Origin: Myxococcales bacterium
GTDB taxonomy: Bacteria > Myxococcota_A > Polyangia > Nannocystales > Nannocystaceae
Assembly (NCBI GenBank): GCA_020633315.1
Contig: JACKDV010000004.1
Coordinates: 448,071 to 512,070 of the forward strand
Length of the DNA stretch: 64,000 nucleotides
Direction: 5' to 3'
Part shown: positions 32,969 to 46,944 of the stretch, one piece after another
How positions within the stretch are numbered: position 1 is the stretch's first letter
How the letters are laid out: each line of letters begins with the position of its first letter
The notes under the pieces: model-generated
Database searches by the model: none
Told to the model about the DNA's origin: nothing
What the model saw: only the letters and a program-made list of their open reading frames with translations
Program-made: the position numbers and the translations under genes

Positions 32969-33361
32969 ATGGACGCGCTCGTCGACCAGACCCACGCCCA
33001 GCACCTGGCCACGGCCGCTCGCTGGCTGGGCTTCGGGGTGGCCTCGCTGCCCGTGCTCGACCTCGCTGATCGCGCTGGCCTGTTCGTCCTGCTCGCCTCC
33101 CCCTCCTCGCTCGAGCTGGGCGGGCTGCTGCTGCCCCTGCTCCAGATCGCCTTCTTCGTGGCAGTGGGCGTGGGCGCCAGCATGGTGCTCCGACGCCACC
33201 GCCCGCCTGCGCGCCCGTGGTTCTTCGCCGGCTGCGTGCTGCCGGTGATCGTCTATGTGCTGTCCACCGGCCTGCGCCTCGCGGCGGTGGCGTCGCTCGT
33301 CGCCCTGTGCCTCGCCTTCGTCCAGCTGCGGCTGGCGCGGAGCACCGAGCCCTCGCGATGA
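32969..33361 (+). CDS. Small polytopic membrane protein (130 aa), unannotated sub-ORF
   Basis: ATG preceded by GAAAGGAAGG 9 nt upstream. The translation MDALVDQTHAQHLATAARWLGFGVASLPVLDL...LLLPLLQIAFFVAVGVGASMVL...FFAGCVLPVIVYVLSTGLRLAAVASLVALCLAFVQL has 3-4 TM helices. In the track it is buried in the artefact ORF 31223..33361. Confidence 0.55.
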   Translation: MDALVDQTHAQHLATAARWLGFGVASLPVLDLADRAGLFVLLASPSSLELGGLLLPLLQIAFFVAVGVGASMVLRRHRPPARPWFFAGCVLPVIVYVLSTGLRLAAVASLVALCLAFVQLRLARSTEPSR

Positions 33362-33495: not shown

Positions 33496-34929
33496 ATGCT
33501 CCGCCGCCTTCGCCTGCCCTTCGTGATCGCCTGCACCCTCGCTTGGCCCGCGGCAGCGCTCGCCGCCACGCCGAGCGCCGAGGCGCAGTCGAGCGACGAC
33601 GAGCCGGTGGGGGTCTACGGCGGCGACTTCGTGCAGGACTGCGGCTGGCCCACCACCGTCTCGATGGAGGGCCAGTGCACCGGCACCCTCATCCACCCGC
33701 AGGTGGTGGTCTACGCGGCGCACTGCGGCAGCAACTACGGCAGCGTGCAGCTCGGCGAGGAGATCGCCCCGGGCCACGCCCGCTCGGTGAGCACCGAGTA
33801 CTGCCGCACCTACGGCAACTTCGACGCGGGGGCCGGCACCGACTGGGCCTTCTGCGTGCTGTCCGAGCCGCAGGACGACATCGCCATCGTGCCGCCGCTG
33901 ATGGGCTGCGAGCTCGACGTGCTGGAGCCCGGCACCCCGGTGACCATCGTGGGCTTCGGCCAGGCCGAGACCGGCTACGGCAGCAAGAAGGAGGTCACCA
34001 CCGAGTTCGGCTTCTTCGCGGGCGACGAGGTGTTCCTGGGCGGCGGCGGCGAGGATGCCTGCAGCGGCGACTCGGGCGGTCCCGTGTTCGTGCAGATGCC
34101 CGACTCGGGGAGCTGGCGGGCCTTCGGCATCACCTCCTACGGCTCGGCCAACTGCCTTCAGGGCGGCTACTACTCGCTCATCCCGCTGGGCATGCCCTGG
34201 TTCGAGTCCGAGACCGGCTTCGACCTCACGCCCTGCCACGACGCCGACGGCAACTGGACCCCGGGCCCGCGCTGCCAGGACTTCCCCCTCATGCCCATGA
34301 GCGCGGGCGGAGCCTGGGCCGACGGCTGCGATCCGGGCGACCTCGGGGGCGCCGAGTCCACCTGCGGCGCGGCCTTCGATCCCTCCGACGACACCGTCGC
34401 GCCGATCGTCGCGTTCGTGCAGCCCCCCAACGAGAGCCGCTTCGAGAGCGACCCCGAGACCGGCACGGCCAACGTCGCCATCGAGATCAGTGCACAGGAC
34501 GAGGGCTACGGCGTGGACACGGTGGAGCTGCTGATCAACGGCAGCAGCATCCCCGGCGGCGTGCTCGAGGTGGAGCCCTACACCTTCAACCTGCTGCTGC
34601 CGCCCGGCAGCTACGAGCTCGATGCCATCGCCACCGACTTCTCGGGCAACCAGGGCGAGGCCGAGCCCCTCTACGTGGGCGTGGACATGGATCCGGTGGT
34701 GCCCGATCCCGAGCCGGCCGACGACAGCGGCGGCACCGGGCTCGACACCGGCAGCGAGACCGACGGCCTGCCCGGCGGCACCGGGAACGACGGAAGCGGC
34801 AGCGGCAACCCCGGGGCCGACGGCGACGCGAGCGGCTGCGGCTGCCGCAGCTCCGGCTCGAGCCCGGGCGCGCTGGTCCTCGGCCTGCTGGGCCTGATGC
34901 TGGTCCGCCGCCGTTCGTCGGCGGCCTAG
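33496..34929 (+). CDS. Trypsin-like (S1) serine protease with MYXO-CTERM sorting tail
   Basis: Signal peptide, TGTLIHPQVVVYAAHC (His) and GDSGGPVF (Ser). The C-terminus GCGCRSSGSS-PGALVLGLLGLMLVRRR is MYXO-CTERM. Confidence 0.9.
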   Translation: MLRRLRLPFVIACTLAWPAAALAATPSAEAQSSDDEPVGVYGGDFVQDCGWPTTVSMEGQCTGTLIHPQVVVYAAHCGSNYGSVQLGEEIAPGHARSVSTEYCRTYGNFDAGAGTDWAFCVLSEPQDDIAIVPPLMGCELDVLEPGTPVTIVGFGQAETGYGSKKEVTTEFGFFAGDEVFLGGGGEDACSGDSGGPVFVQMPDSGSWRAFGITSYGSANCLQGGYYSLIPLGMPWFESETGFDLTPCHDADGNWTPGPRCQDFPLMPMSAGGAWADGCDPGDLGGAESTCGAAFDPSDDTVAPIVAFVQPPNESRFESDPETGTANVAIEISAQDEGYGVDTVELLINGSSIPGGVLEVEPYTFNLLLPPGSYELDAIATDFSGNQGEAEPLYVGVDMDPVVPDPEPADDSGGTGLDTGSETDGLPGGTGNDGSGSGNPGADGDASGCGCRSSGSSPGALVLGLLGLMLVRRRSSAA

Positions 34930-34985
34930 TCCTGGGCCTGCTGGGCCTGGTGCTGGTCCGCCGCCGTCCTTCGGCCGTGGTCTAG
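34873..34985 (+). repeat. Tandem ~57-bp duplication of the MYXO-CTERM tail coding segment
   Basis: The second copy begins at the protease stop codon and encodes LVLGLLGLVLVRRRPSAVV* in another frame. The first copy encodes LVLGLLGLMLVRRRSSAA*. Confidence 0.75.
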
Positions 34986-36283
34986 CCCTCGGCCTGCTTG
35001 GCCTGCCAGCGCCGCGCCGCCGGCGAGTCGAGCGGATCGCCGCCGGTGGTGAACAGGGTGATGCCCTGCGCGCTCGCGGGCGGCCCCGCGTGCACGATGT
35101 GGTGCACGCTGCCCACGAAGGGCTGGGCCAGCCACTGCTGGAAGTTGGCGATCGGCTGCACGTTGTAGCGGTAGTCGTCGTTGGCCGCCTTGGCGGTGAT
35201 GGTGCGCAGCAGCACCGCGTCGTCGGCCCACGGCAGCGAGGCCACGCTCTGCCGGAACACGGGAGAGTAGCGCTTCCAGTACTGCTCGGCGTTGCTGAGG
35301 TAGAGCACCCGCAGCGGGACCCCCAGGGCCTGGGCCGCCTCGCCGATGCCGGCGAGCCCCTCGCGCTCGAGCAGGTTCACCCGCAGGGCCCGGATGCGCC
35401 GCTGCTCGAGCATCAGGCGCACGTAGTCGTAGGTCTCCTGGTCGTCGAAGACCGTGGGCACGCCCACCTTGGCCATGCGACGCCGGACCGCCCGCAGGCG
35501 ACCGTGGATCCGCCCGCTGCCGCTGCGGTACCAGTAGCGGAGCTCGCGAGCGCGCGGCTCGGGGTGGGCGGCGGCGATGATCTCGAGCGCCCGGGGTCGC
35601 CCGCCCTCCGACCACAGCGCGACCATCTCCTGGGGCGTGTCGGCGTGGAGGAAGAACAGGCGATACAGCTCGTGGATCTCCTGCACCGCGGGGTCGTAGT
35701 CCACCAGCCACGCGAGCTCCGAGCGGGCCCAGCCCACGAACAGGTAGCCCTGGTCGGTGCCCACGCCCAGGTACCCGCCGCCCACGCCCGCAAGCGCGGA
35801 GTGGAACGCATCGAGGGCCTTCTCGTTGCTCGACAGGTAGTGCTTGTTCTCCTGCGAGGGCGCCACGCCGCCGCGGTGCACCGGCACCGGATCCTCGGCC
35901 GTGCCGAACAGGATCGCAACCTGCTCCTCGTCGAGCGGGACCAGGCCGCCCGCGCTCGGGGTCGCGGCCGCGACCTCGGCCGACGGCTCCACCCTCGCCG
36001 ACGGCTCCACCCTCGCCGACGGCTCCACCCTCGCCGACGGCTCCACCCTCGCCGACGGCTCCACCCTCGCCGGCGGCTCGGCGGGAGCCTCCACCGCGGC
36101 TCGCGGCTCGCGGGGGCTCGGGGCCTCGGCGACGGCGGCAGCCTCCTCGGGCCGTGGCCCCCCGTCGGGGCTCGTCGCTCCCCCCTGCGCGGTGCAGGCG
36201 AGCAGGCCGAGGACGACCAGGGCGGAGGCGAGGGGGCGGTGGCTCACCCGAGATCTCATGCGCCCACCCGTCGCGAAGCGCAA
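34982..36283 (-). CDS. Hypothetical lipoprotein with (ARVEPS)x5 repeat
   Basis: ASALVVLGLLACTAQGG lipobox and a Pro/Ala/Glu linker containing 5 tandem 6-aa repeats. The conserved-looking C-terminal domain has YLGVGTDQGYLFVGWARSELAWLVDYDP. Confidence 0.7.
   Translation of the reverse strand: MRFATGGRMRSRVSHRPLASALVVLGLLACTAQGGATSPDGGPRPEEAAAVAEAPSPREPRAAVEAPAEPPARVEPSARVEPSARVEPSARVEPSARVEPSAEVAAATPSAGGLVPLDEEQVAILFGTAEDPVPVHRGGVAPSQENKHYLSSNEKALDAFHSALAGVGGGYLGVGTDQGYLFVGWARSELAWLVDYDPAVQEIHELYRLFFLHADTPQEMVALWSEGGRPRALEIIAAAHPEPRARELRYWYRSGSGRIHGRLRAVRRRMAKVGVPTVFDDQETYDYVRLMLEQRRIRALRVNLLEREGLAGIGEAAQALGVPLRVLYLSNAEQYWKRYSPVFRQSVASLPWADDAVLLRTITAKAANDDYRYNVQPIANFQQWLAQPFVGSVHHIVHAGPPASAQGITLFTTGGDPLDSPAARRWQAKQAEG
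35982..36071. repeat. 18-bp x5 in-frame tandem repeat (GACGGCTCCACCCTCGCC) inside lipoprotein gene
   Basis: Five perfect copies plus a degenerate sixth. They encode (ARVEPS)5 on the minus strand. Confidence 0.85.
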
Positions 36284-36354
36284 GCTTCCGGCGAACGGAG
36301 CAGGCCCGGGTGGTATGGTGCATCACCCCGCGCCCGGAGGGACGGGGACCTGCC

Positions 36355-36831
36355 ATGCGGATCGTGTGCATCTCCGACACGCACGGACGCCACGCGCGGC
36401 TGGAGGTCCCGCCCTGCGACCTGCCGATCCATGCCGGCGACGCCACCCGCCGCGGTCGCCTCGAGGAGCTGCGCTCCGCCCTGGCCTGGATGTCCCGCCG
36501 CTTCCGTCGCATGGCCTACAACCGCGAGCGCGGCCCGGAGATCGCCGCACACTGGGCCGCGATCCCCGAGGGCCTCGACCTGCTGCTCACCCACGGCCCC
36601 CCGCGGGGGGTGGGCGACCGGGCGATCCTCGGGGTGAACGCGGGCTGCGACGACCTGCTGGCGCGCGTGCACCTGGTGCGGCCGCGGGTGCACGTGTTCG
36701 GGCACATCCACGAGGCGGCCGGGGAGTACCGCCTGCCCGGCCTGCCCACGCGCTTCTACAACGTGGCGAGCAGCCGCCTGCTGGGCTGGACCCGCGCGCC
36801 GGTGGTGCTCGAGCTGCCGCCCTCGTGCTAG
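36355..36831 (+). CDS. Metallophosphoesterase (calcineurin-like, YfcE/MJ0936-type)
   Basis: Internal ATG after GAGGGA: MRIVCISDTHGRH, IHAGD, LLTHGPP, VFGHIHE. Confidence 0.8.
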   Translation: MRIVCISDTHGRHARLEVPPCDLPIHAGDATRRGRLEELRSALAWMSRRFRRMAYNRERGPEIAAHWAAIPEGLDLLLTHGPPRGVGDRAILGVNAGCDDLLARVHLVRPRVHVFGHIHEAAGEYRLPGLPTRFYNVASSRLLGWTRAPVVLELPPSC

Positions 36832-36842
36832 ATGCCACCGCG

Positions 36843-37859
36843 ATGACCTCGAACCGCAGCTTCACCCTCGTCTCGCGCCCCCAGGGCGAGCTCGCCGATT
36901 CCGACCTCGCCTTGCACGAGGCGCCGATCGTCGCGCCCGCCAAGGGCCAGATCCAGGTGCGGACCACCTGCATCTCCCTCGATCCCACCAACCGCATCTG
37001 GATGAGCGACGTGCCGCAGTACATGCCGCCGATCGCGATCGGCGAGGTGGTGCGAGCGCTCGGCGTGGCGGTGGTGGAGCAGTCGGCCCACCCCGACTTC
37101 GCGGTGGGCGATCGCGTGGTGGGCCTGCCCGGCTGGGCCACGCACCCCACCATGGATCCGGCCGCGGCCGCGTTCCAGAAGCTCCCGGCCGGGCTCGACA
37201 TGTCCGACGCCAAGGTGCTCGGCCTGCTCGGCACCACCAGCGGGATGACGGCCTACTTCGGCCTGCTCGACGTGCTCGAGCCCACGGCGGGGCAGACCCT
37301 GGTCGTCGACGCGGCGGCGGGCTCGGTGGGCTCGCTGGTCGGACAGATCGCCAAGCTCCACGGCTGCCGCGTGGTGGGCATCGCGGGCGGCCCCCGCAAG
37401 GTCCAGTACCTCACCGAGACCCTCGGGCTCGACGCGGGCATCGACTACAAGAACGAGGACGTGGGCGCCGCGCTCGACCGGCACTGCCCCGACGGGATCG
37501 ACCTGTGCTTCGAGAACGTGGGCGGCCCGATCTTCGACGAGATCCTCATGCGCATGAACAACCACGGCCGCGTGTCGCTGTGCGGGCTGATCTCCGGCTA
37601 CAACGCGGCCGGCATCGAGCGGGTGCCGGGCCCCTACGCCTTCGGCATGATCCTCATGCGTCGGCTGCGGGTGCAGGGCTTCATCATCCTCGACTACGCA
37701 CCGCGCTTCGCCGAGGCCACGGCCACGCTGCTGGAGTGGGGCCAGCAGGGCAAGCTCGTCACCCTGGAAGACGTGCGCACGGGCTTCGACCAGCTGCCCG
37801 AGTCGCTGCGCCAGCTCCTTCGCGGCGAGAAGCACGGCAAGATGGTGCTCGTGCCGTAG
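36843..37859 (+). CDS. NADP-dependent oxidoreductase, MDR superfamily (CurA/YncB/PTGR-like)
   Basis: Internal ATG 11 nt after the preceding gene. Rossmann motif AAAGSVGSLVGQIAKLHGCRVVGIAGG. 338 aa. Confidence 0.85.
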   Translation: MTSNRSFTLVSRPQGELADSDLALHEAPIVAPAKGQIQVRTTCISLDPTNRIWMSDVPQYMPPIAIGEVVRALGVAVVEQSAHPDFAVGDRVVGLPGWATHPTMDPAAAAFQKLPAGLDMSDAKVLGLLGTTSGMTAYFGLLDVLEPTAGQTLVVDAAAGSVGSLVGQIAKLHGCRVVGIAGGPRKVQYLTETLGLDAGIDYKNEDVGAALDRHCPDGIDLCFENVGGPIFDEILMRMNNHGRVSLCGLISGYNAAGIERVPGPYAFGMILMRRLRVQGFIILDYAPRFAEATATLLEWGQQGKLVTLEDVRTGFDQLPESLRQLLRGEKHGKMVLVP

Positions 37860-38037
37860 CGCCCGCGATCGCACGGGCCCCCGTCGATCGCGCCGGGCGC
37901 CCGCGAGGATCACCCTCCCGCCTCCGTCCTCGCCGCCTGCGCGCCGTCTTCGCCGAAGCCCGCGAGATCCCTCGATCATCGGCTCGTTCGGCCGCCGCGC
38001 CGAGCTCGCTGGCGATACGTTCCGCGCTCTCGTACCG

Positions 38038-38694
38038 TTGTCCATCCCAGTGAGCCGACCGAGCCTCTTCGCCTCTGCGAGCTTGCCCGCGGCTGCCGCC
38101 GCGGACGGCAGCGTGTGGGTGTGGCCCGCGGAGGCAGAGCCGGAGGCCCCCGATGCAACGCGGGCCGAGCCCGTCGACGAGGTGCCCTGGGACGACATGA
38201 TGCGTCGCCACGGCCGTCGCGTGGTGGTGGCCCTGGTCGCGCAGGGCGTGCCGCTCGAGCGCGCCAAGGAGCTGGCCCAGGATGCGTGGCTGCGGGTGAT
38301 CGATCGTCACCGCCGCGGCCACATCACCGACCTGCAGCTGCCGGGGCTGGTGATCGCCCAGGCCGGCTTCCTCGCCCGCGACGACATGCGTCGTCGCGAT
38401 CGACGCTCGCGGCTCGACGAGCCGCACCGCCAGGCGGCCGCCAACGACCTGAGCCTCGATCTCGAGGATCAGCTCGACGCGCGGCAGCGGCTGCGAGTGG
38501 TGCGGAGCGTGCTCGACCGCGCCTCGCCCAACGCCCAGCGGGTGTTCGGGCTGCTGTACGGCGAGCGGGCCATGAGCCCCGCCGAGGTGGCGACCGAGCT
38601 GGGCCTGTCGGTCCAGCGCGTACGACAGATCGTCTGTGAGCTCCGCAAGCGCATGCGGGCGGCAATCGCCGAGCCCGGGAGGAAGCTGCGATGA
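38038..38694 (+). CDS. ECF-type RNA polymerase sigma factor
   Basis: Region 2 (ERAKELAQDAWLRVIDRH) and region 4 (MSPAEVATELGLSVQRVRQIVCELRKRM). The start is uncertain: the track start is TTG, and the first ATG is around 38197. Confidence 0.8.
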   Translation: MSIPVSRPSLFASASLPAAAAADGSVWVWPAEAEPEAPDATRAEPVDEVPWDDMMRRHGRRVVVALVAQGVPLERAKELAQDAWLRVIDRHRRGHITDLQLPGLVIAQAGFLARDDMRRRDRRSRLDEPHRQAAANDLSLDLEDQLDARQRLRVVRSVLDRASPNAQRVFGLLYGERAMSPAEVATELGLSVQRVRQIVCELRKRMRAAIAEPGRKLR

Positions 38695-39284
38695 AGGTCA
38701 TTGTCCTCGATGGCCATCCTCGTCAAGAGGAGCTGGCCGACTACGTCAGCGATGCACTGTCCGCCGCGCAGAGCGAGCGGCTCGAGGAGCACCTGCTCGA
38801 CTGCCCGCGCTGTGCCGCTCGCCTGCAAGAGGCCGCGAGCTTCCAGCTGCTCCTGCACGAGGCCGCCGAGTCCCTCGAGTCCGATCGCCGCGCGCCGCCC
38901 TCGAGGCTCCGCCGCGTGGGTCGACGCCTGGGCGCCGTGGGCGGGCTGTGGGGTGCCGCGGCTGCGTTCGCGCTGGTGCTCATGCGACCGCCCACCGACG
39001 ACACCGAGCCGGTGCCCGTGGTGACCCTGGCCGACGATCCCTCGCCCGAGCGCTCCGACGATCGCCGCTGGAGCGGGGAGTGCGACCCGACCGACATCGG
39101 CTGCGCCGAGGCCCTGCTCGCCAGCGTCGATCCCCTCGAGAGCGTCGACCCGCTCTCCTCGTGGCCCGACGATCCCCTGGTGCGCTCGGTGTTCGACTCC
39201 GAGCCCAGCCTGGAGCCCTGCGGCTCGGGCGAGGACGGGGGCATGCTCGTCTGCCCGGTGGACGACGATCCGTTCTCCGGCTAG
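38691..39284 (+). CDS. Anti-sigma factor, zf-HC2 (ZAS) type, single TM
   Basis: EEHLLDCPRC matches H-x3-C-x2-C. The TM segment is LGAVGGLWGAAAAFALVLM. The start overlaps the sigma gene stop (ATGA). Confidence 0.8.
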   Translation: MKVIVLDGHPRQEELADYVSDALSAAQSERLEEHLLDCPRCAARLQEAASFQLLLHEAAESLESDRRAPPSRLRRVGRRLGAVGGLWGAAAAFALVLMRPPTDDTEPVPVVTLADDPSPERSDDRRWSGECDPTDIGCAEALLASVDPLESVDPLSSWPDDPLVRSVFDSEPSLEPCGSGEDGGMLVCPVDDDPFSG

Positions 39285-39550
39285 CGCCTGCTGCAGCGCC
39301 GCACCGAAGGCGGTCTGCACCGGACCCGCCGAGCCCGCCACGACCGGCGGGCAACCGAGCCATGGCTCGCACGGGGGCACTCGGGGCACGCGGGGGCACG
39401 CGGGGGAAAAAAGTAGAGCCCGTCGTGCGCGAGACCGAGGCGCATCGAGCGGCATCATGCTCCCGAGCGCCCGGGATCCCGCATTTGCTCCCACGACCGC
39501 GACGACCGAGCCCGATCGCTTGACCGCGCACACGCCCGCACCTAAAACCG

Positions 39551-42478
39551 ATGGTGCGGATTCGCAGGTTCGTTGTGAATAGAACGCTTGCCCTCGCTCT
39601 CGTCGCCGTCCTGTGGCCTCTCACCGCGGAGGCGATCGAGGCTCCCACGGGCGCCCTCGCGACCGGCCCCGGTCGCCTCGAGCTGGCCGATGGTCGCGTG
39701 CTCGTGCCCGCCGTCCCGCATCGCTGGCGCGCCAGCGCGGCCGCGCCCTCGCAGGCCCGGGCCTTCGATGCCCTGGTCGCGGAGCTCGGTCCCACCTGGG
39801 CCACCTGGGATCCCACCGGCGAGCACCCCCGCCAGATCCTCACCACCGGGCTCGAGGCTCCGGGCACGGTGGCCCACGCGGCCGAGGCCGAGCGCTTCGC
39901 TCGCGAGCTGCTCGAGCGCCACCTCGAGCTGCTCGCCCCCGGCACCAGCCCCGGCGACTTCGTGGTGATCGCCAACGAGCTGTCGGGGGGCCTGCGCAGC
40001 GTGGGCTTCGCCCAGCGCTCGGGCGGTCGCGAGGTGGTGGGCGGACAGATCGGCATGGTCTTCGCCCACGACCGCCTGGTGATGATCAACAGCCTGGCGC
40101 AGCCGCACGTGCTGGTGCCGACCACTGCCTCGCGGATCTCCGACGCCACCGCGCGCGACCGGGCCCAGCGCTGGATCACCGACGACCTGGCCGCCGCCAC
40201 CCTGCGCACCCGCCCGACCGTCGAGGGCCCGCTGGTGCTGCCAGTGGGCGACGCGAGCGGGCCTCGCTACCGCGAGGTGCTGCGCGCCGAGGTCCGCACC
40301 GAGCAGCCGCTGGGGCGCCTGTGGGTCTACCTCGACGCCGAGACCGGCGAGCCCGTGGCCCGCGAGTCGCGGATGCACTACGCCAGCGGGCAGGTCGTCT
40401 ACGACACGCCGCAGCGCAGCCCCACCCTCGGGCGCATCCTCGTGCCGGCGCCCTTCACCGAGCACGTGGTCGGCGGCTTCGCCCAGGTCAGCGATCCCTC
40501 GGGCTTCGTCACCTTCCCCGGCCCCACCACCAACGTGCAGCCCGGCCTGCACGGCCCCCTCGCGGCGGTCACCGACGAGGCGGGCCCGCTGGCGAGCTCC
40601 TCGCTGTTCCTCCCCGACGGCGGCAGCGCGACCTGGAGCGCCGCCACCAGCGAGCTCGCCGACGCGCAGCTCACCACCTACGCCCACACCCTGGCGGTCA
40701 AGAGCTACGTGCGGGCCTTCGCGTCGGACCTCGCCTGGCTCGACCAGCAGATCAGCACCACCGTCAACATCGACGACGTGTGCAACGCGATGTCGGACGG
40801 CGACTCGCTGTTCTTCCTGCGCTCGAGCCCCGCCTGCGAGAACTCGGGGCGGATGCCCGACGTCGTCTACCACGAGTTCGGCCACTCGGTTCACCATCAG
40901 TCGCTCATCCCCGGCGTGGGCCTGTTCGACGGCGCGCTCTCGGAGGGCATCTCGGACTACCTGAGCGCCACCATCCAGAACGACTCGGGCGTGGGGCGTG
41001 GCTTCTTCTACACCAGCGAGCCGCTGCGCGAGCTCGACCCCGACGGCTTCGAGTGGACCTGGCCGCAGGACAACGGCGAGGTGCACGACGCCGGCCGCAT
41101 CATCGGCGGCACGCTGTGGGACCTCCGCACCCTGCTCATCGCCAAGTACGGCCAGGCCGAGGGCGTGCGCCAGGCCGACACGCTCTACTACCAGGCCACC
41201 CGCCGCGCGGTCGACATGCCCTCGATGTACGGCGCGGCCCTCATCGCCGACGACGACGACGGCGACCTGGGCAACGGCACGCCCAACGTGTGTGAGATCA
41301 ACGCGGCCTTCGGCGCCCACGGCCTGTTCTCCAGCAGCGATCCCGGGGCCGAGCGCATCTACGCCGACGAGCTGCCCGAGGGGCTGCACGTCTACGTGGC
41401 CCTCGACCTGCCCAACTTCGAGGCCTGCCCCCTGGGGGCCTCGGTGCAGATCGAGTGGGGCCCCCGCGACGGCGACGGCACCACCCAGGTCGCCGAGATG
41501 TTCCCCATCGAGGGCGGCTTCCAGAACGTGATCCCGCCGCTGCCCTCCGGGCAGGTGATGCGCTACCGCGTGCACGTGCGCTACGACAACGGGGCCGAGC
41601 GGCAGGTGCCGGCCAACCTCGGCGATCCCTGGCTCGAGCACTGGTTCGGCGAGGTCGAGCCGATCTACTGCACCAGCTTCGCCGACGGCACCAGCGACGG
41701 CTGGAGCGCGCCCGCCCCCTGGGACGTGGACGCCCCGCTGGGCCTGGCCGGCGATCCGGCGGCCACCGCCGGGCCCGATCCCTTCGTGCTAGGCCTCGAT
41801 CTCAACGGCGACGGCTACTACCTGCCCTGGTCCACCGCCACCGCCGAGAGCCCGGAGATCACCATCCCGCGGGCCTACGAGTCGATCCGCCTGCACTACC
41901 AGCGCTGGCTCACCGTGGAGGACGGCTTCTACGACCAGGCCCACATCCTGGTCGACGGCGACGAGGCGTGGAGCAACTACGCCAGCCCCGACGACTTCAA
42001 CGGCGCCACCACCCACCACCGCGACGCCCAGTGGGCGTTCCACGACGTGGACATCACCGAGTGGGCCCTGGACGGCTCGGTGCGCCTGGGCTTCACCCTC
42101 GCCAGCGACGGCGGCCTGGAGATGGGCGGCTGGAACGTCGACGAGCTGTGCGTGGTGGGCTACTCGCCGCTGGGCGAGCCCCCGCCGCCCGGCTGCGGCG
42201 ACGGGGTGGTCGACGCGGGCGAGGAGTGCGACGACGGCAACGTGTTCGACGGCGACGGCTGCAGCTCGCAGTGCCTGATGGAGGGCACGGACGACGGCGA
42301 TCCCTCGAGCTCGGGCGACGACTCCGGGGGAGGCGGGGGCGGCAGCGGGGGCCTGGTGGACGGTCACCTCATCGATCGCGGCTGCGCGTGCCAGGCCGAG
42401 CCGGGCGGCGGCCGCGGGCGCTGGGGCCTCGCCCTGCTGCCGCTGCTGTGGGCGGCGGTGCGTCGGCGCCGACGCTGA
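39551..42478 (+). CDS. Secreted thermolysin-like (M4-type HExxH...E) zinc metalloprotease with Myxococcus cysteine-rich repeat and MYXO-CTERM
   Basis: Signal peptide, VVYHEFGHSVHH plus GALSEGISDY (third zinc ligand, as in thermolysin), CGDGVVDAGEECDDGNVFDGDGCSSQC repeat, and the ending GCACQAEPGGG...LLPLLWAAVRRRRR. Confidence 0.85.
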   Translation: MVRIRRFVVNRTLALALVAVLWPLTAEAIEAPTGALATGPGRLELADGRVLVPAVPHRWRASAAAPSQARAFDALVAELGPTWATWDPTGEHPRQILTTGLEAPGTVAHAAEAERFARELLERHLELLAPGTSPGDFVVIANELSGGLRSVGFAQRSGGREVVGGQIGMVFAHDRLVMINSLAQPHVLVPTTASRISDATARDRAQRWITDDLAAATLRTRPTVEGPLVLPVGDASGPRYREVLRAEVRTEQPLGRLWVYLDAETGEPVARESRMHYASGQVVYDTPQRSPTLGRILVPAPFTEHVVGGFAQVSDPSGFVTFPGPTTNVQPGLHGPLAAVTDEAGPLASSSLFLPDGGSATWSAATSELADAQLTTYAHTLAVKSYVRAFASDLAWLDQQISTTVNIDDVCNAMSDGDSLFFLRSSPACENSGRMPDVVYHEFGHSVHHQSLIPGVGLFDGALSEGISDYLSATIQNDSGVGRGFFYTSEPLRELDPDGFEWTWPQDNGEVHDAGRIIGGTLWDLRTLLIAKYGQAEGVRQADTLYYQATRRAVDMPSMYGAALIADDDDGDLGNGTPNVCEINAAFGAHGLFSSSDPGAERIYADELPEGLHVYVALDLPNFEACPLGASVQIEWGPRDGDGTTQVAEMFPIEGGFQNVIPPLPSGQVMRYRVHVRYDNGAERQVPANLGDPWLEHWFGEVEPIYCTSFADGTSDGWSAPAPWDVDAPLGLAGDPAATAGPDPFVLGLDLNGDGYYLPWSTATAESPEITIPRAYESIRLHYQRWLTVEDGFYDQAHILVDGDEAWSNYASPDDFNGATTHHRDAQWAFHDVDITEWALDGSVRLGFTLASDGGLEMGGWNVDELCVVGYSPLGEPPPPGCGDGVVDAGEECDDGNVFDGDGCSSQCLMEGTDDGDPSSSGDDSGGGGGGSGGLVDGHLIDRGCACQAEPGGGRGRWGLALLPLLWAAVRRRRR

Positions 42479-42512
42479 GGCCTCGATCTCCCTCCTGCGA
42501 CCAGTCGTCCCC

Positions 42513-43451
42513 ATGAAGCTCATCGGTGCATGCCAGCCTCGCTCGGGGACGATGTCCCTGCTGACCGCCATCGAGCGGATGGGCGGGCGCTGCTACCACA
42601 TGAAGGTCGTCCTGCAGAACACGCTCGAGGGGCGGGGCGACCTCTACAAGTGGTTCCGCATCGCGGCGCTCGAGCCCTTCGACGCGGAGCGCCTGCGGCT
42701 GCTCCGGGAGCTCTTCGCCGGCTACGACGCCTGCGTCGATGCCCCCGCCTGCTACGTCTACGAGGAGCTGCGCCACCTCTTCCCCGACGCGCGCGTGGCC
42801 CTCACCAAGCGCGATGCCTCGAGGTGGCTCGCGTCGGTGTGCGACACCGTCCTGCGTCCGCACCGCTTCGCCCAGCGGCCGCTGGTGCGGGTGTGCATGG
42901 CCATCGTCGACCTCGTGTGGCGGATCCCGGTCGTGGGCGGCATCGGCATCATCGGCAAGATCGCCGCCCTGCCCCCAGCCGTCGCGATGCGCCCCTACCT
43001 CGACGAGCACGGCGAGCTGCTGGATTTCTACGACGAGCACAACCACGACGAGATCCGGGCGCGCTACCACCACTACATCGAGGGCGTGGAGCGAGCCGTG
43101 CCCGCGGACCAGCTCGTCGTGCTCGAGGCGCCCTACGAGGATGCCTACCGCGAGCTCGGCCCGATCTTCGGGGTGGAGATCCCCGCCGACGAGCCCTGGC
43201 CCCACGTCAACGACCGCAAGGACGTCAACCGCAGCCTCGACATCGTGATGGCCTTGCTGGTGATCGTGCCCCTGACCTTCGTGGGCGCCCTGCTGGCGCT
43301 GGTCTACGCGCTGCTCACCGCGCCGCGGCTCGCGGTGGTGGTGGTGGCCGTCGTGGTGGCGACGATCGTCGGGGTGCGGTGGTTGCTGCGGTGGCTGCTC
43401 GCCCGGGTCGGCCAGCACGACGCGGCCAAGCGCAGCCCCGCCCCACCGTGA
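42513..43451 (+). CDS. Sulfotransferase-family protein with C-terminal TM helices
   Basis: PAPS 5'-phosphosulfate-binding-type motif CQPRSGTMS. The hydrophobic C-terminus is LLVIVPLTFVGALLALVYALL.... Confidence 0.65.
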   Translation: MKLIGACQPRSGTMSLLTAIERMGGRCYHMKVVLQNTLEGRGDLYKWFRIAALEPFDAERLRLLRELFAGYDACVDAPACYVYEELRHLFPDARVALTKRDASRWLASVCDTVLRPHRFAQRPLVRVCMAIVDLVWRIPVVGGIGIIGKIAALPPAVAMRPYLDEHGELLDFYDEHNHDEIRARYHHYIEGVERAVPADQLVVLEAPYEDAYRELGPIFGVEIPADEPWPHVNDRKDVNRSLDIVMALLVIVPLTFVGALLALVYALLTAPRLAVVVVAVVVATIVGVRWLLRWLLARVGQHDAAKRSPAPP

Positions 43452-43472
43452 GCCCGCGAGCGGGCGTCGGCG

Positions 43473-45761
43473 CTACGACCCCGGCCGCGGGTGCTCGGCG
43501 AGGAAGCGCGCCAGCACCTCCGGCACCGGGCCGGGCTTCGCGATCGCCTCGAGCAGGTCGAGCTGGTACCGCAGCGTGTCCAGCTCGCCCCGCCCCACGC
43601 CCCACCAGCGCATGCGACCCCAGCCGTAGGACAAGAGCTGGTTGTCGTCGGTGACGGCCTCCTCGAGCTGGGCGTAGCGCTCGAGCGCGTCGGGGCCGTA
43701 GCGCAGGCGCGCCGCCACCTCGGCCGGCGCGAGGTCTCGCGGCACGTCGCGCTCCAGGCCGGGGAACAGCGGGCCCTCGCCCTTGCGCCCCACGAGGATC
43801 CCGGTGCCCTCGGGATCGATCCACAGGAAGCCCTGCGGAAAGTGCTGGAGGAAGGCCCCCACGATCGCGGCGGACTCCTCGGGAGACACCAGGTGGAAGG
43901 GCAGCCACTGGGCGATCACGCCGTCGGCCGCGAGGCGCTCGTATGCGAGGGCGTAGAAGTCCGCGGAGTAGAGCGCGTTGGAGCCAGCAAAGGTGGGCGG
44001 CATGGGCTCGAGGGTGATCACGTCGTACGCGGTGTCGGTGCGCCGCAGCCACGCCCGCCCGTCCATCACCCGCGGGGTGACGCGGGGGTCGTCGAGCACG
44101 CCCTCGTTCTCGGGGAAGTGCGGGGCCATCTGCAGCACGGTGCCGCTGACGTCCACCACGTCGAGGTGGGCGGGGCCCTCCTTGCGCACCGCGTTCGCGG
44201 TCTGGCCGGTGCCGAAGCAGATCACCAGGGCCTGCCGGGGATCGGGGTGCATCAGCATGGGCAGGTGCCCCATCCACGGCATGTAGTGCGAGCCCGAAGA
44301 GGTGGTCGACGCGTAGAAGCCGTCGATCACCAGGTGCCGCCCGCCGTCGGCGTGCTCGATGACCGAGACGGTGGCATCGGGGCCCTCCTTCGAGGCGATC
44401 ACCACGTGCGCCTCGTCGAGGTTGGTCTGCACCCGCAGCGTGCCCACCTCGCTGGCCCCGGCCACCGCCACCACCACGCCGAGCCCGGCGACCACCAGGT
44501 GACGGACGCGACGGGAGCGGTCGAGCAGCAGCGCCGCGCCGGCGAGCACCGCCGCCGCCACCCAGGCCGTGCGGGCGAAGCCGATGCCGGGCAGCAGCAC
44601 CCAGGCGGCGAGCAGCGAGCCGAGGGTGGCCCCGAGGGTGTTGAGGGCGTACAGGAGCCCCACGCCCCGCGAGTCGCGGGTGGCCTCGAGCACCCAGGGC
44701 AGGCCCACCCCGATGAGCGCCATCGAGGGGCCGAGCACGGCGAGCGCGAGCCCCAGCCGTCGCGCGACCGCATGGGTGAAGGTGCTCGGCTCGGAGGCGC
44801 CGACCAGCACGAGGTCGATGCGCTCGATCACCGGCGTGGTCACCAGCACCACGAAGGCCGCGGCGACGAGGATGGTGCCGAGCGAGGGGCGAGCGCGTCG
44901 GGCCAGCCAGGGAGCCACCGCGCCGCCGAGGGCCAGGGGCAGCAGCACGCCGAAGAGCACCAGCGCGAAGCTGTCGGTGGTGGCCTGGTAGGCGGCGCGT
45001 AGCGATCGGAACCACGCAACCTCGAGCGCGAAGGTGGCGAAGCCCGTGCAGAGCACCACCGTCCGCGCCACGCGGGGTGGCAGGGGAGCGATCGGCGAGC
45101 GATCGGCGGGCTCGGCCTCGCGGCGGTCGGGCTCGGCCTCGGCCTCGGCGCGCGCCCGCACCCGTGCCCGCGCCCGCGCCCGCGAGGCCAGCCCGAGCAG
45201 GGCCGCCCCGATGAGCCCGTCGATCAGGCTGGCGATCGAGACCGTGAGGCTCACGCCGACGGCGGGGATGAAGACGAACGAGGCCGCGATGATCCCCACC
45301 GCCGCCCCGGCCACGTTGGCCGCGTACAGGCGCCCGATGGAGAGCGCGCGCTGCCTCGCCACGCCCGCGAGCACCGGGATCGTGGCGCCCATCAGCGCGG
45401 CGGGCACGGTCAGCAGCAGCAGCATGCCGGCGAGCTGGACCAGGGGAGCCAGGCCCGGCGAGCTGCGCCACACCGCGGTGTCGAGCTCGGCCAGCGCCGC
45501 GAAGCCGGGCTCGAGGGCCTGGCCGCACAGGGCGACGCCGATCTCCAGCGCGCCCCACAGCGCGAGCAGGCTCGCCGCGGGGTGTCGCGCGAGCCAGCGC
45601 CCGCCGAGCTCGGCTCCCAGCGCCAGGCCGATCGAGAACGCCACCAGGGTGAGCGCCGCCCCCTGCGACGAGATCCCGAGCGAGAGCGCCGTGTAGTGCA
45701 GCCACAGGAGCTCCCACGCCAGCCCGGCCACGCCACCGAGGGCCGCGATCGCGTAGAGCAT
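43473..45761 (-). CDS. Polytopic membrane protein fused to spermidine-synthase-like (class I SAM MTase-fold) domain
   Basis: About 8 N-terminal TM helices, then a PABS-like core (LVICFGTGQTA, DVITLEP). Paralog of 53937..56399. Confidence 0.75.
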   Translation of the reverse strand: MLYAIAALGGVAGLAWELLWLHYTALSLGISSQGAALTLVAFSIGLALGAELGGRWLARHPAASLLALWGALEIGVALCGQALEPGFAALAELDTAVWRSSPGLAPLVQLAGMLLLLTVPAALMGATIPVLAGVARQRALSIGRLYAANVAGAAVGIIAASFVFIPAVGVSLTVSIASLIDGLIGAALLGLASRARARARVRARAEAEAEPDRREAEPADRSPIAPLPPRVARTVVLCTGFATFALEVAWFRSLRAAYQATTDSFALVLFGVLLPLALGGAVAPWLARRARPSLGTILVAAAFVVLVTTPVIERIDLVLVGASEPSTFTHAVARRLGLALAVLGPSMALIGVGLPWVLEATRDSRGVGLLYALNTLGATLGSLLAAWVLLPGIGFARTAWVAAAVLAGAALLLDRSRRVRHLVVAGLGVVVAVAGASEVGTLRVQTNLDEAHVVIASKEGPDATVSVIEHADGGRHLVIDGFYASTTSSGSHYMPWMGHLPMLMHPDPRQALVICFGTGQTANAVRKEGPAHLDVVDVSGTVLQMAPHFPENEGVLDDPRVTPRVMDGRAWLRRTDTAYDVITLEPMPPTFAGSNALYSADFYALAYERLAADGVIAQWLPFHLVSPEESAAIVGAFLQHFPQGFLWIDPEGTGILVGRKGEGPLFPGLERDVPRDLAPAEVAARLRYGPDALERYAQLEEAVTDDNQLLSYGWGRMRWWGVGRGELDTLRYQLDLLEAIAKPGPVPEVLARFLAEHPRPGS

Positions 45762-45927
45762 TCCTCGACGATATCAACCCCGCGGGCCCGAGCCCCCGCC
45801 CGGCACCCTCGCCCGCAGGCACGACGGCGGGCCTCGGTCGCCGCGACCAACGACGAGGGGCCGGGGTGGCACCCGAGCCCGCGGCCACGGCCGCGGCCCG
45901 CGGGGCGCAAAGCACCGGCCAAGCGGG

Positions 45928-45953
45928 GAATTTCGCCACGAGCCGCGAAATTC
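45928..45953. promoter_or_regulatory. AT-rich perfect palindrome GAATTTCGC-N8-GCGAAATTC in divergent intergenic region
   Basis: 9-bp perfect inverted arms in a 72% GC background, 53 nt upstream of the DUF481 gene start. Confidence 0.4.
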
Positions 45954-46005
45954 GGGCTCGACCGCGGGAAGCCGGCCGGGAACACGAGTAGGATGGGCGC
46001 CGCTC

Positions 46006-46944
46006 ATGCGACGACGCCTCGCAATCGCCGCGGCCGGGCTCGCGACCTCGCTGCTCGCCAACGTGGCGGCCGCGGCCGGTCCCGCCGAGTCCGAGCCTGC
46101 TCCTCCGGCCGGAACCGCCACCAAGGACCCCGCCACCTCGGGCTCGACCGAGCTCGCCGGACAAGGCTCGTTCGGCACCGTGGCCACACAGGACGAGGAG
46201 GCGGGCGACACCCTCGAGTGGGACCTGTCCTTCGGCGCGCTGCTGAGCACCGGCAACGCGCGCAGCACCGCGATCACCGGCGGCACCAACTTCCTGCTCC
46301 GCCGCGGCCGCCACCAGATCTACGCGACCTTCCTGGGTAACTACGGCCGCGCTGCCGCGAGCGTGAACGACGAGGTCGTCGACACGGTGGGCAACCTGCA
46401 GGGCCGCGCCCGCTACGACCTGTTCGTGGGCAAGCGCTGGTCGGTGTTCGGCATGGTCACCGCGCGCCACGATCCCTTCCAGCGCCTCGACCTGCGGCTC
46501 AACGTGGACCCGGGCGCCGCGCTCTACGTGATCAACCGCGCCAAGGAGCAGCTCCGCTTCGAGGCCGGCTACGACTTCCAGCTCGACGTCCGCGATCCCG
46601 ACTCGGCGGTGGAGCTCGAGGCCGACGGCTCGCCGGTGTACGACGCCCAGGGCAACTTCATCCCGCTGGACCACACCCGCATCACCCACGCGGCACGCCT
46701 GGCCGCGGGCTACAGCAACAAGGTCAACGAGGCCGTCGGCTTCTCCACCGAGCTCGAGTACCTGCAGAGCCTGCTCCAGGCCCAGCGCTGGCGCCTCAAC
46801 TGGGTGACCAGCCTCTCCACCGTGCTCGTGCGCAAGCTGTCGCTGTCCGCCACCTTCAACCTGCGGATGGACAACGACCCCCTGCCCGGCGTCAAGCACC
46901 TGGACACCATCACCTCGGTCAACCTGGTCTATCGCTTCTTGTAG
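46006..46944 (+). CDS. DUF481-family outer-membrane beta-barrel protein
   Basis: Signal peptide and alternating amphipathic beta strands. C-terminal ...VNLVYRF-L, typical of OMP beta-barrels. Confidence 0.7.
   Translation: MRRRLAIAAAGLATSLLANVAAAAGPAESEPAPPAGTATKDPATSGSTELAGQGSFGTVATQDEEAGDTLEWDLSFGALLSTGNARSTAITGGTNFLLRRGRHQIYATFLGNYGRAAASVNDEVVDTVGNLQGRARYDLFVGKRWSVFGMVTARHDPFQRLDLRLNVDPGAALYVINRAKEQLRFEAGYDFQLDVRDPDSAVELEADGSPVYDAQGNFIPLDHTRITHAARLAAGYSNKVNEAVGFSTELEYLQSLLQAQRWRLNWVTSLSTVLVRKLSLSATFNLRMDNDPLPGVKHLDTITSVNLVYRFL

What the first reader, a model, noticed from the sequence alone, without database searches (positions are those of the whole stretch)
38038..43451. ECF sigma / ZAS anti-sigma pair followed by a MYXO-CTERM thermolysin-like protease and a membrane-tethered sulfotransferase
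The sigma gene (38038..38694) and the zf-HC2 anti-sigma gene (38691..39284) overlap by ATGA. A 266-nt spacer follows, containing a tandem GGGGCACGCG x2 and a GGGGGAAAAAAG tract (39383-39413), unusual in this GC background. Then comes a 975-aa secreted M4-like metalloprotease carrying the Myxococcus cysteine-rich repeat and MYXO-CTERM, and 35 nt later a sulfotransferase. This looks like an envelope-stress or developmentally controlled secreted protease module. The sulfotransferase partner is unexplained.
Basis: partly seen in the sequence, partly recalled or inferred. Interest (0 to 1): 0.5.

Follow-up and report, generated by a model that had tools for sequence, protein, structure and literature searches.

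The report
Sigma-linked surface protease cluster; sulfotransferase inserted
A stress-type sigma factor, its membrane anti-sigma factor and a cell-surface thermolysin-like protease form a gene cluster kept together across a group of myxobacteria, but the protease has its own different promoter, and the sulfotransferase is a recent insertion found only in this organism.

Summary
I make three small corrections.
- The sigma gene most likely starts at GTG 38050, not TTG 38038.
- The protease most likely starts at GTG 39575, not ATG 39551.
- The gap before the sulfotransferase is 34 nt, not 35.

Comparison with more than 20 related loci shows a conserved unit: small membrane protein, ECF-type sigma, zinc-finger (ZAS) anti-sigma, MYXO-CTERM protease. 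One clade adds a DUF481 protein and an OmpA-like outer-membrane protein.

All sigma-linked proteases form a single clade within a family of several hundred myxobacterial paralogues.

The sigma gene is preceded by a conserved ECF-type promoter, P1 (GCGATAYR-N16-CGTTG). Its start codon lies 9-11 nt after P1, so the mRNA is probably leaderless.

The protease has a different conserved promoter, P2 (TTGACC-N17-TAMAAC). No second P1 copy exists anywhere in the window or in the related loci.

The G-rich repeat and A6 tract in the spacer are statistically unusual. They are absent from every related locus.

The sulfotransferase (PF17784) and the convergent spermidine-synthase-like gene fill a 3.5-kb block. 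This block is absent from all relatives.

Verdict: an ordinary, undescribed member of the sigma/anti-sigma-plus-neighbour type. Whether the sigma regulates the protease is unresolved. The sulfotransferase partnership is rejected.

The parts
32969..33361 (+). Gene for a ~130-aa small membrane protein. In most relatives it sits directly upstream of the sigma gene; here it is 4.7 kb away.
   Evidence: tblastn finds it directly upstream of sigma in 12 related loci. ORF shown. Hydrophobic spans.
34914..36359 (.). Block present in the window but absent from the closest relative L084. It holds a DUF7790 gene on the minus strand.
   Evidence: blastn of window against L084. Pfam hit.
36823..37995 (.). 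Block present in the window but absent from L084. It holds a zinc-type alcohol dehydrogenase/MDR gene ending at 37859.
38012..38040 (+). P1, an ECF-type bipartite promoter: GCGATACG-N16-CGTTG.
   Evidence: It is the only match in the 64 kb. The same motif with a fixed 16-nt spacer lies upstream of sigma in 17 further loci. The PWM gives 22-35 bits at these sites and at most 11 bits anywhere else.
38050..38694 (+). ECF-type sigma factor of 214 aa. It has a conserved N-terminal extension and probably a leaderless mRNA, since the start codon lies 10 nt after P1.
   Evidence: TIGR02937 and Sigma70_r4 hits. The N-terminus is conserved with synonymous codon changes. An independent gene call in the cluster look-up also gives 214 aa. 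The fold matches SigE, AlgU, SigL and SigW.
38691..39284 (+). Single-pass ZAS anti-sigma factor. Its ~95-aa extracytoplasmic tail carries four conserved cysteines.
   Evidence: zf-HC2 hit. Alignment of 10 orthologues. Membrane span at residues 80-98. ATGA overlap with sigma.
39373..39413 (+). G-rich 10-nt tandem repeat with four G4-5 runs, followed by A6. It is specific to this lineage.
   Evidence: It is absent from all seven orthologous spacers. DNA similarity to L084 resumes only at 39507.
39520..39548 (+). P2, a sigma-70-family-type bipartite promoter: TTGACC-N17-TAAAAC.
   Evidence: It is the only match in the window, with 0 expected by chance. It is conserved upstream of the protease in 12 other loci of clades A and B and occurs nowhere else in 1.34 Mb.
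39575..42478 (+). Thermolysin-fold gluzincin protease of 967 aa. Its order of parts is: signal peptide, PepSY-like propeptide, catalytic domain, two beta-sandwich domains, cysteine-rich repeat, MYXO-CTERM.
42477..45961 (.). A 3.5-kb block absent from all relatives. It holds the sulfotransferase and the spermidine-synthase-like gene.
   Evidence: blastn against L084. tblastn finds neither gene in 83 loci. The same block occurs only in same-species assemblies.
42513..43451 (+). PF17784 (Schistosoma-type) sulfotransferase with a PRSGT PAPS loop, a hydrophobic insertion and a hydrophobic tail.
43473..45761 (-). A 762-aa multi-pass membrane protein with a spermidine-synthase-like domain, convergent with the sulfotransferase.
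45927..46008 (+). Conserved upstream region of the DUF481 gene: GGAATT-N14-GAAATT, followed by AGTAGGATGGGCGCCGCTCATG.
46006..46944 (+). DUF481 outer-membrane beta-barrel protein. In relatives it directly follows the protease.
47022..48473 (+). OmpA-family outer-membrane protein, the last gene of the clade-A cluster.

Best explanation
The window holds one copy of a gene cluster conserved in Nannocystaceae-like myxobacteria.

Gene order. Small membrane protein, ECF-type sigma, transmembrane ZAS anti-sigma, surface protease. One clade adds a DUF481 protein and an OmpA-like outer-membrane protein.

Sigma and anti-sigma.
- Shown: the two genes are translationally coupled.
- Shown: they follow a conserved ECF-type promoter, P1.
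- Inferred: P1 produces a leaderless mRNA, and the sigma drives P1 itself.
- Inferred by analogy with sigmaW/RsiW: the anti-sigma holds the sigma at the inner membrane through its zinc-finger domain. It releases the sigma when its cysteine-containing periplasmic tail is cleaved or altered.

Protease.
- Shown: it has a thermolysin fold, a complete catalytic residue set and a tripartite C-terminal sorting signal.
- Inferred: it is exported, loses its PepSY-type propeptide, and is anchored on the cell surface through MYXO-CTERM and myxosortase.
- Shown: a conserved bipartite motif, P2, precedes it and differs from P1.
- Inferred: P2 is its own promoter. So it is not simply the distal gene of the sigma operon, and it is not driven by a P1-type site.
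- Inferred: the long-retained linkage means the pair and the protease work in the same envelope or surface process.
- Unresolved: whether the sigma reads P2.

Insertions.
- Shown: the sulfotransferase plus spermidine-synthase-like block (42477-45961) and the blocks at 34914-36359 and 36823-37995 are additions specific to this lineage.
- Inferred: the sulfotransferase is probably co-transcribed with the protease by accident of position. It is not a functional partner.
For: Conserved cluster.
- Seven loci with 49-75% protease identity show sigma, anti-sigma, protease, DUF481, OmpA.
- Clade B has a 725-aa minus-strand gene in between. Clade C has a minus-strand GAF gene in between.
- The sigma-linked proteases are monophyletic among 95 family members.
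- The protease hit list and the sigma hit list share 21 exact contig lengths.

P1.
- It has fixed 16-nt spacing in 18 loci.
- The start codon lies 9-11 nt downstream in 10 of 10 aligned loci.
- Ser codons vary between AGC and TCC and Arg codons between CGA, CGT and CGC in the first codons. This proves they are translated.

P2.
- It occurs in 13 loci and only upstream of these proteases.

No second P1 site.
- The PWM gives at most 11 bits elsewhere, against 22-35 bits at true sites.

Protein identities.

Insertions.

MYXO-CTERM sorting mechanism: PMC11980579.
Against: - No transcript data exist, so both promoters and the leaderless start are inferred from conservation and geometry only.
- P2 lacks the T at the last position of the -10 hexamer that housekeeping sigma-70 promoters normally keep. 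The tool's canonical scan finds no sigma-70 promoter in the region.
- The recognition helix of the sigma (QRVRQI) resembles RpoD and RpoS rather than typical ECFs. It could therefore read a TTGAC-type -35 such as that of P2.
- P2 is not recognisable in clade C.
- No intrinsic terminator was found between the anti-sigma gene and the protease. Read-through from P1 is therefore possible in this clade.
Confidence: 0.6

Rival explanations
1. The adjacent sigma factor directly transcribes the protease, and with it the sulfotransferase, from a promoter in the 39285-39550 spacer. In that case P2 is the sigma's own target promoter, and P1 is read by another sigma.
For: - The linkage is retained in three clades even when other genes intervene.
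- P2 occurs only where the sigma is nearby.
- Region 4.2 of the sigma is RpoD/RpoS-like, which fits a TTGACC -35.
- The -10 of P2 lacks the -7 T, as expected for a sigma without region 1.2.
Against: - P1 and P2 share no element.
- By established knowledge of ECF sigmas, most drive their own operon. That makes P1 the expected cognate motif.
- P1 is conserved in clade C, but P2 is not.
- The co-occurrence of P2 and the sigma is confounded by shared ancestry.
Confidence: 0.3
2. The protease acts upstream of the sigma. It, or peptides it releases, alters or cleaves the cysteine-rich periplasmic tail of the anti-sigma and so switches the sigma on.
For: - The linkage is conserved without a shared promoter.
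- The anti-sigma has a conserved extracytoplasmic tail of unknown function.
- Before export, a MYXO-CTERM protein is held in the inner membrane facing the periplasm (PMC11980579).
Against: - There is no direct evidence.
- The mature protease is expected to sit outside the outer membrane.
- No interaction test could be run.
Confidence: 0.1
3. The adjacency is inherited gene order with no functional connection.
For: - The promoters differ.
- All linked loci descend from one ancestor.
Against: The trio survives down to 42-46% protease identity while flanking and intervening genes change repeatedly.
Confidence: 0.15
4. The sulfotransferase is a functional partner. It would sulfate the protease, its substrates or a surface molecule.
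For: - The gene lies 34 nt downstream on the same strand with no terminator between.
- It is membrane-associated.
Against: - It is absent from all 83 related protease loci fetched first and from the orthologous loci fetched later.
- Homologues at 64-67% identity lie in unrelated neighbourhoods.
- Its nearest solved relatives are small-molecule sulfotransferases, including the oxamniquine-resistance enzymes.
- Inference: its PAPS-binding domain must face the cytoplasm, while the protease is extracellular.
Confidence: 0.05
5. The G-rich repeat and A6 tract (39373-39413) form a regulatory element for the protease, for example a G-quadruplex or an upstream promoter element.
For: - It is the only such G-run array in the 64 kb (simulated mean 0.08) and one of two A6/T6 runs.
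- It lies about 110 nt upstream of the -35 of P2.
Against: - It is absent from all orthologous spacers, including the closest relative.
- The spacer does not fold unusually well (z = -1.77).
- There is no Rfam match.
Confidence: 0.1

Closest known systems
Bacillus subtilis sigmaW / RsiW (ECF sigma with a single-pass ZAS anti-sigma, released by regulated proteolysis)
   Same: - A two-domain ECF-fold sigma. The SigW-RsiW structures 5wuq and 5wur are among the best fold matches.
- The anti-sigma has an H-x3-C-x2-C motif, one membrane span and an extracytoplasmic tail.
- The two genes are translationally coupled.
   Different: - Sequence similarity is very low.
- The sigma has a conserved ~45-residue N-terminal extension, an RpoD/RpoS-like QRVRQI helix and a probably leaderless mRNA.
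- The anti-sigma tail is a short four-cysteine segment.
- No PrsW-type or RasP-type protease was identified here.
- The release mechanism is inferred from knowledge of that system, not tested.
M4 peptidases (thermolysin, vibriolysin MCP-02, aureolysin, LasB)
   Same: - The HEXXH motif, with Glu 20 residues after the second His, then Asp at +4, and Asp-x4-His further on.
- Fold match with target TM-scores of 0.61-0.68.
- A weak profile match to the M4 propeptide.
   Different: - Sequence identity is 13-18%, and there is no Pfam M4 hit.
- It has about 370 extra C-terminal residues: beta-sandwich/MAM-like domains, a cysteine-rich repeat and MYXO-CTERM.
MYXO-CTERM surface proteins sorted by myxosortase MrtX, for example TraA of Myxococcus xanthus (PMC11980579)
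   Same: The C-terminal signal has three parts: a Cys motif (GCAC), a membrane helix and an Arg-rich tail.
   Different: - The TIGR03901 score of 19.1 is just under the cut-off of 20.
- Sorting was not tested, and no myxosortase gene was sought.
Schistosoma mansoni oxamniquine sulfotransferase and bacterial PF17784 enzymes (PDB 4mua, 5tiz, 9kf1, SgdX2 8y9p)
   Same: - A full-length PF17784 match.
- The N-terminal PAPS loop and the C-terminal segment align.
   Different: It has a hydrophobic insertion (residues 123-159) and a 60-residue hydrophobic tail that the solved, soluble enzymes lack. Its substrate is unknown.

Membership tests
ECF (group 4) sigma-70 family | Only the sigma-2 and sigma-4 domains are present, at a length of about 200 aa. 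| tested here: met
   TIGR02937 scores 50.8 bits against a cut-off of 42.9, covering residues 72-209. The model has two helical domains, and its top fold matches are SigE, AlgU, SigL, SigW, BldN and CnrH.
ECF (group 4) sigma-70 family | Pfam Sigma70_r2 and Sigma70_r4_2 signatures. | tested here: not met
   There is no r2 hit. r4_2 reaches only E = 0.037. The best hit is Sigma70_r4 (PF04545) at 23.9-24.0 bits against a cut-off of 24.1.
ECF (group 4) sigma-70 family | A co-transcribed cognate anti-sigma gene. | tested here: met
   An ATGA overlap. The two genes overlap in 10 of 10 orthologous loci.
ECF (group 4) sigma-70 family | The sigma drives its own operon from a promoter with a CGT-type -10 element. 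| tested here: inconclusive
   A conserved GCGATAYR-N16-CGTTG motif lies upstream in 18 loci. Which sigma reads it cannot be shown from sequence.
ZAS (zinc-binding) anti-sigma factors | An H-x3-C-x2-C motif with an upstream fourth ligand. | tested here: met
   PF13490 scores 27.1 bits against a cut-off of 22.2. H34, C38 and C41 are conserved in all ten aligned orthologues. H9, the candidate fourth ligand 25 residues upstream, is conserved in nine of ten and falls in a gap in L004.
ZAS (zinc-binding) anti-sigma factors | Zinc binding and sigma binding. | not testable with these tools
   Needs biochemistry.
Peptidase family M4 (thermolysin) | HEXXH, a Glu 20 residues downstream as third zinc ligand, and a downstream catalytic His. 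| tested here: met
   H441, E442, H445, E465, D469 and H512 are invariant, and D507 is at least 90% conserved, in 31 sequences.
Peptidase family M4 (thermolysin) | Sequence-profile membership (Pfam Peptidase_M4 and Peptidase_M4_C). | tested here: not met
   No hit at E <= 0.1. The PDB profile search matches only the propeptide region, at E = 0.02.
Peptidase family M4 (thermolysin) | The two-lobed thermolysin fold. | tested here: met
   Foldseek top hits are thermolysin, MCP-02, aureolysin and LasB, with E from 1.8e-9 to 1e-5 and target TM-scores of 0.61-0.68. The model pLDDT is 77 overall and above 85 in the core.
MYXO-CTERM sorting signal | The TIGR03901 profile score is above its cut-off. 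| tested here: not met
   19.1 bits against a cut-off of 20. This is borderline.
MYXO-CTERM sorting signal | A conserved Cys motif, then a membrane helix, then an Arg-rich C-terminus. | tested here: met
   The sequence reads GCACQ...WGLALLPLLWAAVRRRRR. G944, C945 and C947 are at least 90% conserved and R971 is invariant. The architecture is as defined in PMC11980579.
Sulfotransfer_4 (PF17784) | A full-length profile match and a PAPS-binding loop. | tested here: met
   127.6 bits against a cut-off of 22.8, covering profile positions 1-214 of 215. The PRSGT loop aligns with GRTGT of 9kf1.
   The sulfotransferase is in none of the 83 related protease loci and in none of the orthologous loci fetched later. 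It is absent from the closest relative. Its homologues lie elsewhere.

The most novel reading that the evidence does not exclude
The sigma could be a hybrid type: ECF-sized and ECF-folded, but with an RpoD/RpoS-like -35 recognition helix, a conserved N-terminal extension and a leaderless mRNA. It would be dedicated to one target, the surface protease, through P2. P2 is a promoter with a housekeeping-like TTGACC -35 and a TACAAC -10 that lacks the usual final T. P1 would then be read by a different sigma, giving a two-step sigma cascade that controls a surface protease.
Probability: 0.25. Interest if true: 0.5.

Novelty: new member of a known kind. Interest (0 to 1): 0.3.

Why it matters
It defines a compact, conserved sigma/anti-sigma/surface-protease unit in a poorly studied group of myxobacteria, the Nannocystaceae and their relatives. 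It gives two precise promoter motifs and corrected start codons that can be tested directly in a cultured relative.

It also removes a false lead. The sulfotransferase is an inserted gene, not part of the system. Beyond that, the locus is an ordinary example of an ECF sigma with conserved neighbours.

Tried and rejected
- Terminator and canonical sigma-70 promoter scan of 37800-46100: nothing found.
- Rfam search of 37700-46200: only a chance miRNA hit.
- RNA folding of the spacer: not significant, z = -1.77.
- Search for repeats bounding the 3.5-kb insertion as a sign of a mobile element: only short chance matches.
The close orthologues had to be fetched one by one.
- The metagenome scan with the sigma profile gave only 10 loci, mostly short.
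- Look-up of the NCBI copy of the sigma (P0168) found no contig on record. The source could only be named through cluster members: the 'Myxococcales bacterium' MAGs, one with locus tag H6712_11165 for the sulfotransferase and one with KC501_35750.
- A literature search for ECF sigmas in Nannocystis, Plesiocystis or Enhygromyxa found nothing specific.
- I considered a sigma-32-type reading of P2 (CTTGAA ... CCCCAT). I dropped it because clade B lacks the CC.
- I considered a P1-like site upstream of the clade-C protease. I dropped it because the spacing is 3 nt too short.
Full report
**What is in the sequence**

The window is about 73% G+C. Codon-position GC shows real genes on the + strand at 38038/38050-38694, 38691-39284, 39551/39575-42478 and 42513-43451. 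A convergent gene lies at 43473-45761 on the minus strand. Two further + strand genes lie at 46006-46944 and 47022-48473.

The first gene is an ECF-type sigma factor.
- TIGR02937 scores 50.8 bits against a cut-off of 42.9. The only near-threshold Pfam hit is Sigma70_r4.
- An AlphaFold model built on 40 homologues (pLDDT 83.6) has two helical domains. Its best PDB matches are the ECF sigmas SigE, AlgU, SigL, SigW, BldN and CnrH.

The second gene overlaps the first by ATGA.
- It has a zf-HC2 motif (H34-x3-C38-x2-C41), with H9 as the likely fourth ligand.
- It has one membrane span at residues 80-98 and a ~95-residue outer tail with four conserved cysteines.

The third gene has no Pfam peptidase hit, but three lines of evidence mark it as thermolysin-like.
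- H441, E442, H445, E465, D469 and H512 are invariant in 31 homologues, with thermolysin spacing.
- A PDB profile search touches the M4 propeptide region.
- The model (pLDDT 77) matches thermolysin, vibriolysin MCP-02, aureolysin and LasB best.

It ends with the cysteine-rich repeat (TIGR02232, E = 7e-11) and a MYXO-CTERM-type signal. The signal scores 19.1 bits against a cut-off of 20, and its three-part architecture is intact. Myxosortase cleaves such signals and places the protein on the cell surface (PMC11980579).

The fourth gene is a full-length PF17784 sulfotransferase (E = 8e-37). It is related to small-molecule sulfotransferases. It also has a hydrophobic insertion and a 60-residue hydrophobic tail.

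**Comparison with relatives**

The protease belongs to a family of several hundred myxobacterial proteins.

Loci with 49-75% protease identity are L084, L001, L002, L085, L086, L087 and L004. All of them show sigma, anti-sigma, protease, DUF481 and OmpA in that order. None has a sulfotransferase.

More distant loci keep the sigma, anti-sigma and protease trio, with something in between:
- a 556-aa + strand gene in L002;
- a 725-aa minus-strand gene in L099;
- a minus-strand GAF gene in L102-L104, where the protease is 46% identical.

Most of the other 76 loci fetched from genome contigs are paralogues without a nearby sigma. A neighbour-joining tree of the catalytic cores places all sigma-linked proteases in one clade among 95 sequences. 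The protease and sigma hit lists share 21 exact contig lengths.

A ~130-aa membrane protein gene lies directly upstream of the sigma gene in 12 loci. In the window it is 4.7 kb away, at 32969-33361.

**Promoters**

Upstream of the sigma gene, every locus with sequence available carries GCGATAYR-N16-CGTTG. I call this P1; in the window it spans 38012-38040.
- Its 16-nt spacer has a fixed length and is poorly conserved apart from a short TC element.
- A start codon follows 9-11 nt later in 10 of 10 aligned loci.
- The first codons vary synonymously (AGC/TCC for Ser; CGA/CGT/CGC for Arg), so they are translated.
The real start is most likely GTG 38050, which leaves no room for a ribosome-binding site. 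The mRNA is therefore probably leaderless.
- An independent gene call also gives 214 aa.

Upstream of the protease, DNA similarity to the closest relative is lost after the anti-sigma stop and returns at 39507. From there, all loci of clades A and B share:
- TTGACC-N17/18-TAMAAC, which I call P2 (window 39520-39548). Clade B has TTGCTY ... TACAAC, and one locus has TACAAA.
- Then GCAGGTTTnGTnGTGAAT.

This points to a start at GTG 39575 and a good signal peptide.

P2 occurs nowhere else in 1.34 Mb of fetched sequence. A P1 weight matrix scores 22-35 bits at the true sites and at most 11 bits anywhere else in the window or the orthologous loci. The protease therefore has its own promoter, of a different type from P1.

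Two cautions apply.
- P2 lacks the final T of a canonical -10, and the tool's sigma-70 scan rejects it.
- The recognition helix of the sigma (QRVRQI) resembles RpoD and RpoS.

For these reasons I cannot exclude that this sigma reads P2. P2 is not recognisable in clade C, while P1 is.

**The spacer tract**

GGGGGCACTCGGGGCACGCGGGGGCACGCGGGGG followed by A6 (39373-39412) is the only four-fold run of G4+ in the 64 kb. Simulations give a mean of 0.08. The tract also holds one of two A6/T6 runs in the window. TRF reports period 10 with 3.6 copies.

The tract is absent from all seven orthologous spacers. The spacer does not fold unusually well, and there is no Rfam match. I treat it as a feature specific to this lineage with no demonstrated role.

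**The sulfotransferase**

Alignment with the closest relative shows three blocks found only in the window: 34914-36359, 36823-37995 and 42477-45961. The last block holds the sulfotransferase and the spermidine-synthase-like gene. It sits exactly where the relatives go from the protease straight to DUF481.

The same block occurs only in assemblies of the same species. Sulfotransferase homologues at 64-67% identity lie in unrelated neighbourhoods. No repeat marks the block as a mobile element.

The 34-nt gap has no terminator and no clear ribosome-binding site. Co-transcription with the protease is therefore likely, but incidental.

**Mechanism proposed**

Shown:
- the domain content of each protein;
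- the coupling of the sigma and anti-sigma genes;
- the conserved cluster;
- two distinct conserved promoter motifs;
- the insertions.

Inferred:
- The sigma drives P1 and is held by the anti-sigma until an envelope signal acts on the periplasmic tail. This is by analogy with sigmaW/RsiW, from established knowledge of that system.
- The protease is exported, activated by loss of its propeptide, and anchored on the surface by myxosortase.
- The trio serves one envelope or surface process.

Unresolved: whether the sigma controls the protease (through P2, or by read-through from P1) or is instead influenced by it.

**Verdict**

This is an undescribed but conventional member of the class of ECF sigma with conserved neighbours, and its interest is modest.

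Noticed in passing
window 32969-33361 (+): A ~130-aa small membrane protein gene lies directly upstream of the sigma gene in 12 related loci. In the window and in L084 it is separated from the sigma gene by inserted genes. It is probably part of the ancestral cluster.
   Followed up: partly
window 45927-46008: The region upstream of the DUF481 gene is conserved. It has GGAATT-N13/14-GAAAWW (also a palindrome AATTTCGC..GCGAAATT in the window), then an invariant AGTAGGATGGGCGCCGCTCATG. This is a third, different promoter-like element in the cluster.
   Followed up: partly
window 34914-36359 and 36823-37995: Two further blocks are absent from the closest relative L084. One holds a DUF7790 gene on the minus strand and the other a zinc-type dehydrogenase gene. 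The locus appears to collect accessory genes.
   Followed up: partly
window 37859-37906: A 19-nt tandem repeat (GCGCCCGCGATCGCACGG, 2.6 copies) lies just after the dehydrogenase stop codon, upstream of P1.
   Followed up: no
window 47715-48000: The OmpA-like gene contains internal repeats, seen as multiple offset blastn matches to L084. In the orthologues this region carries faint TSP_3 hits.
   Followed up: no
window 43452-43465: A short GC hairpin (GCCCGC-GA-GCGGGC) fills most of the 21-nt gap between the convergent sulfotransferase and spermidine-synthase-like genes. No T-run follows it.
   Followed up: no
window 38050-38190 (sigma residues 1-45): The sigma has a conserved N-terminal extension (MSRPSxFAP...PAAAAA.DG.VW.WP). 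The model predicts it to be disordered, and its role is unknown.
   Followed up: partly
L003 6001-11812 (Nannocystis punicea): Two paralogous proteases of this family lie in tandem with no sigma factor nearby. This shows the family expands by local duplication.
   Followed up: no
L088 2456-6556: A 67%-identical sulfotransferase follows a DUF4215/RCC1-like secreted protein and a leucine-rich-repeat protein in a marine metagenome contig. This may be coincidence, but it is a second case of this sulfotransferase lying downstream of a cysteine-rich-repeat protein.
   Followed up: no
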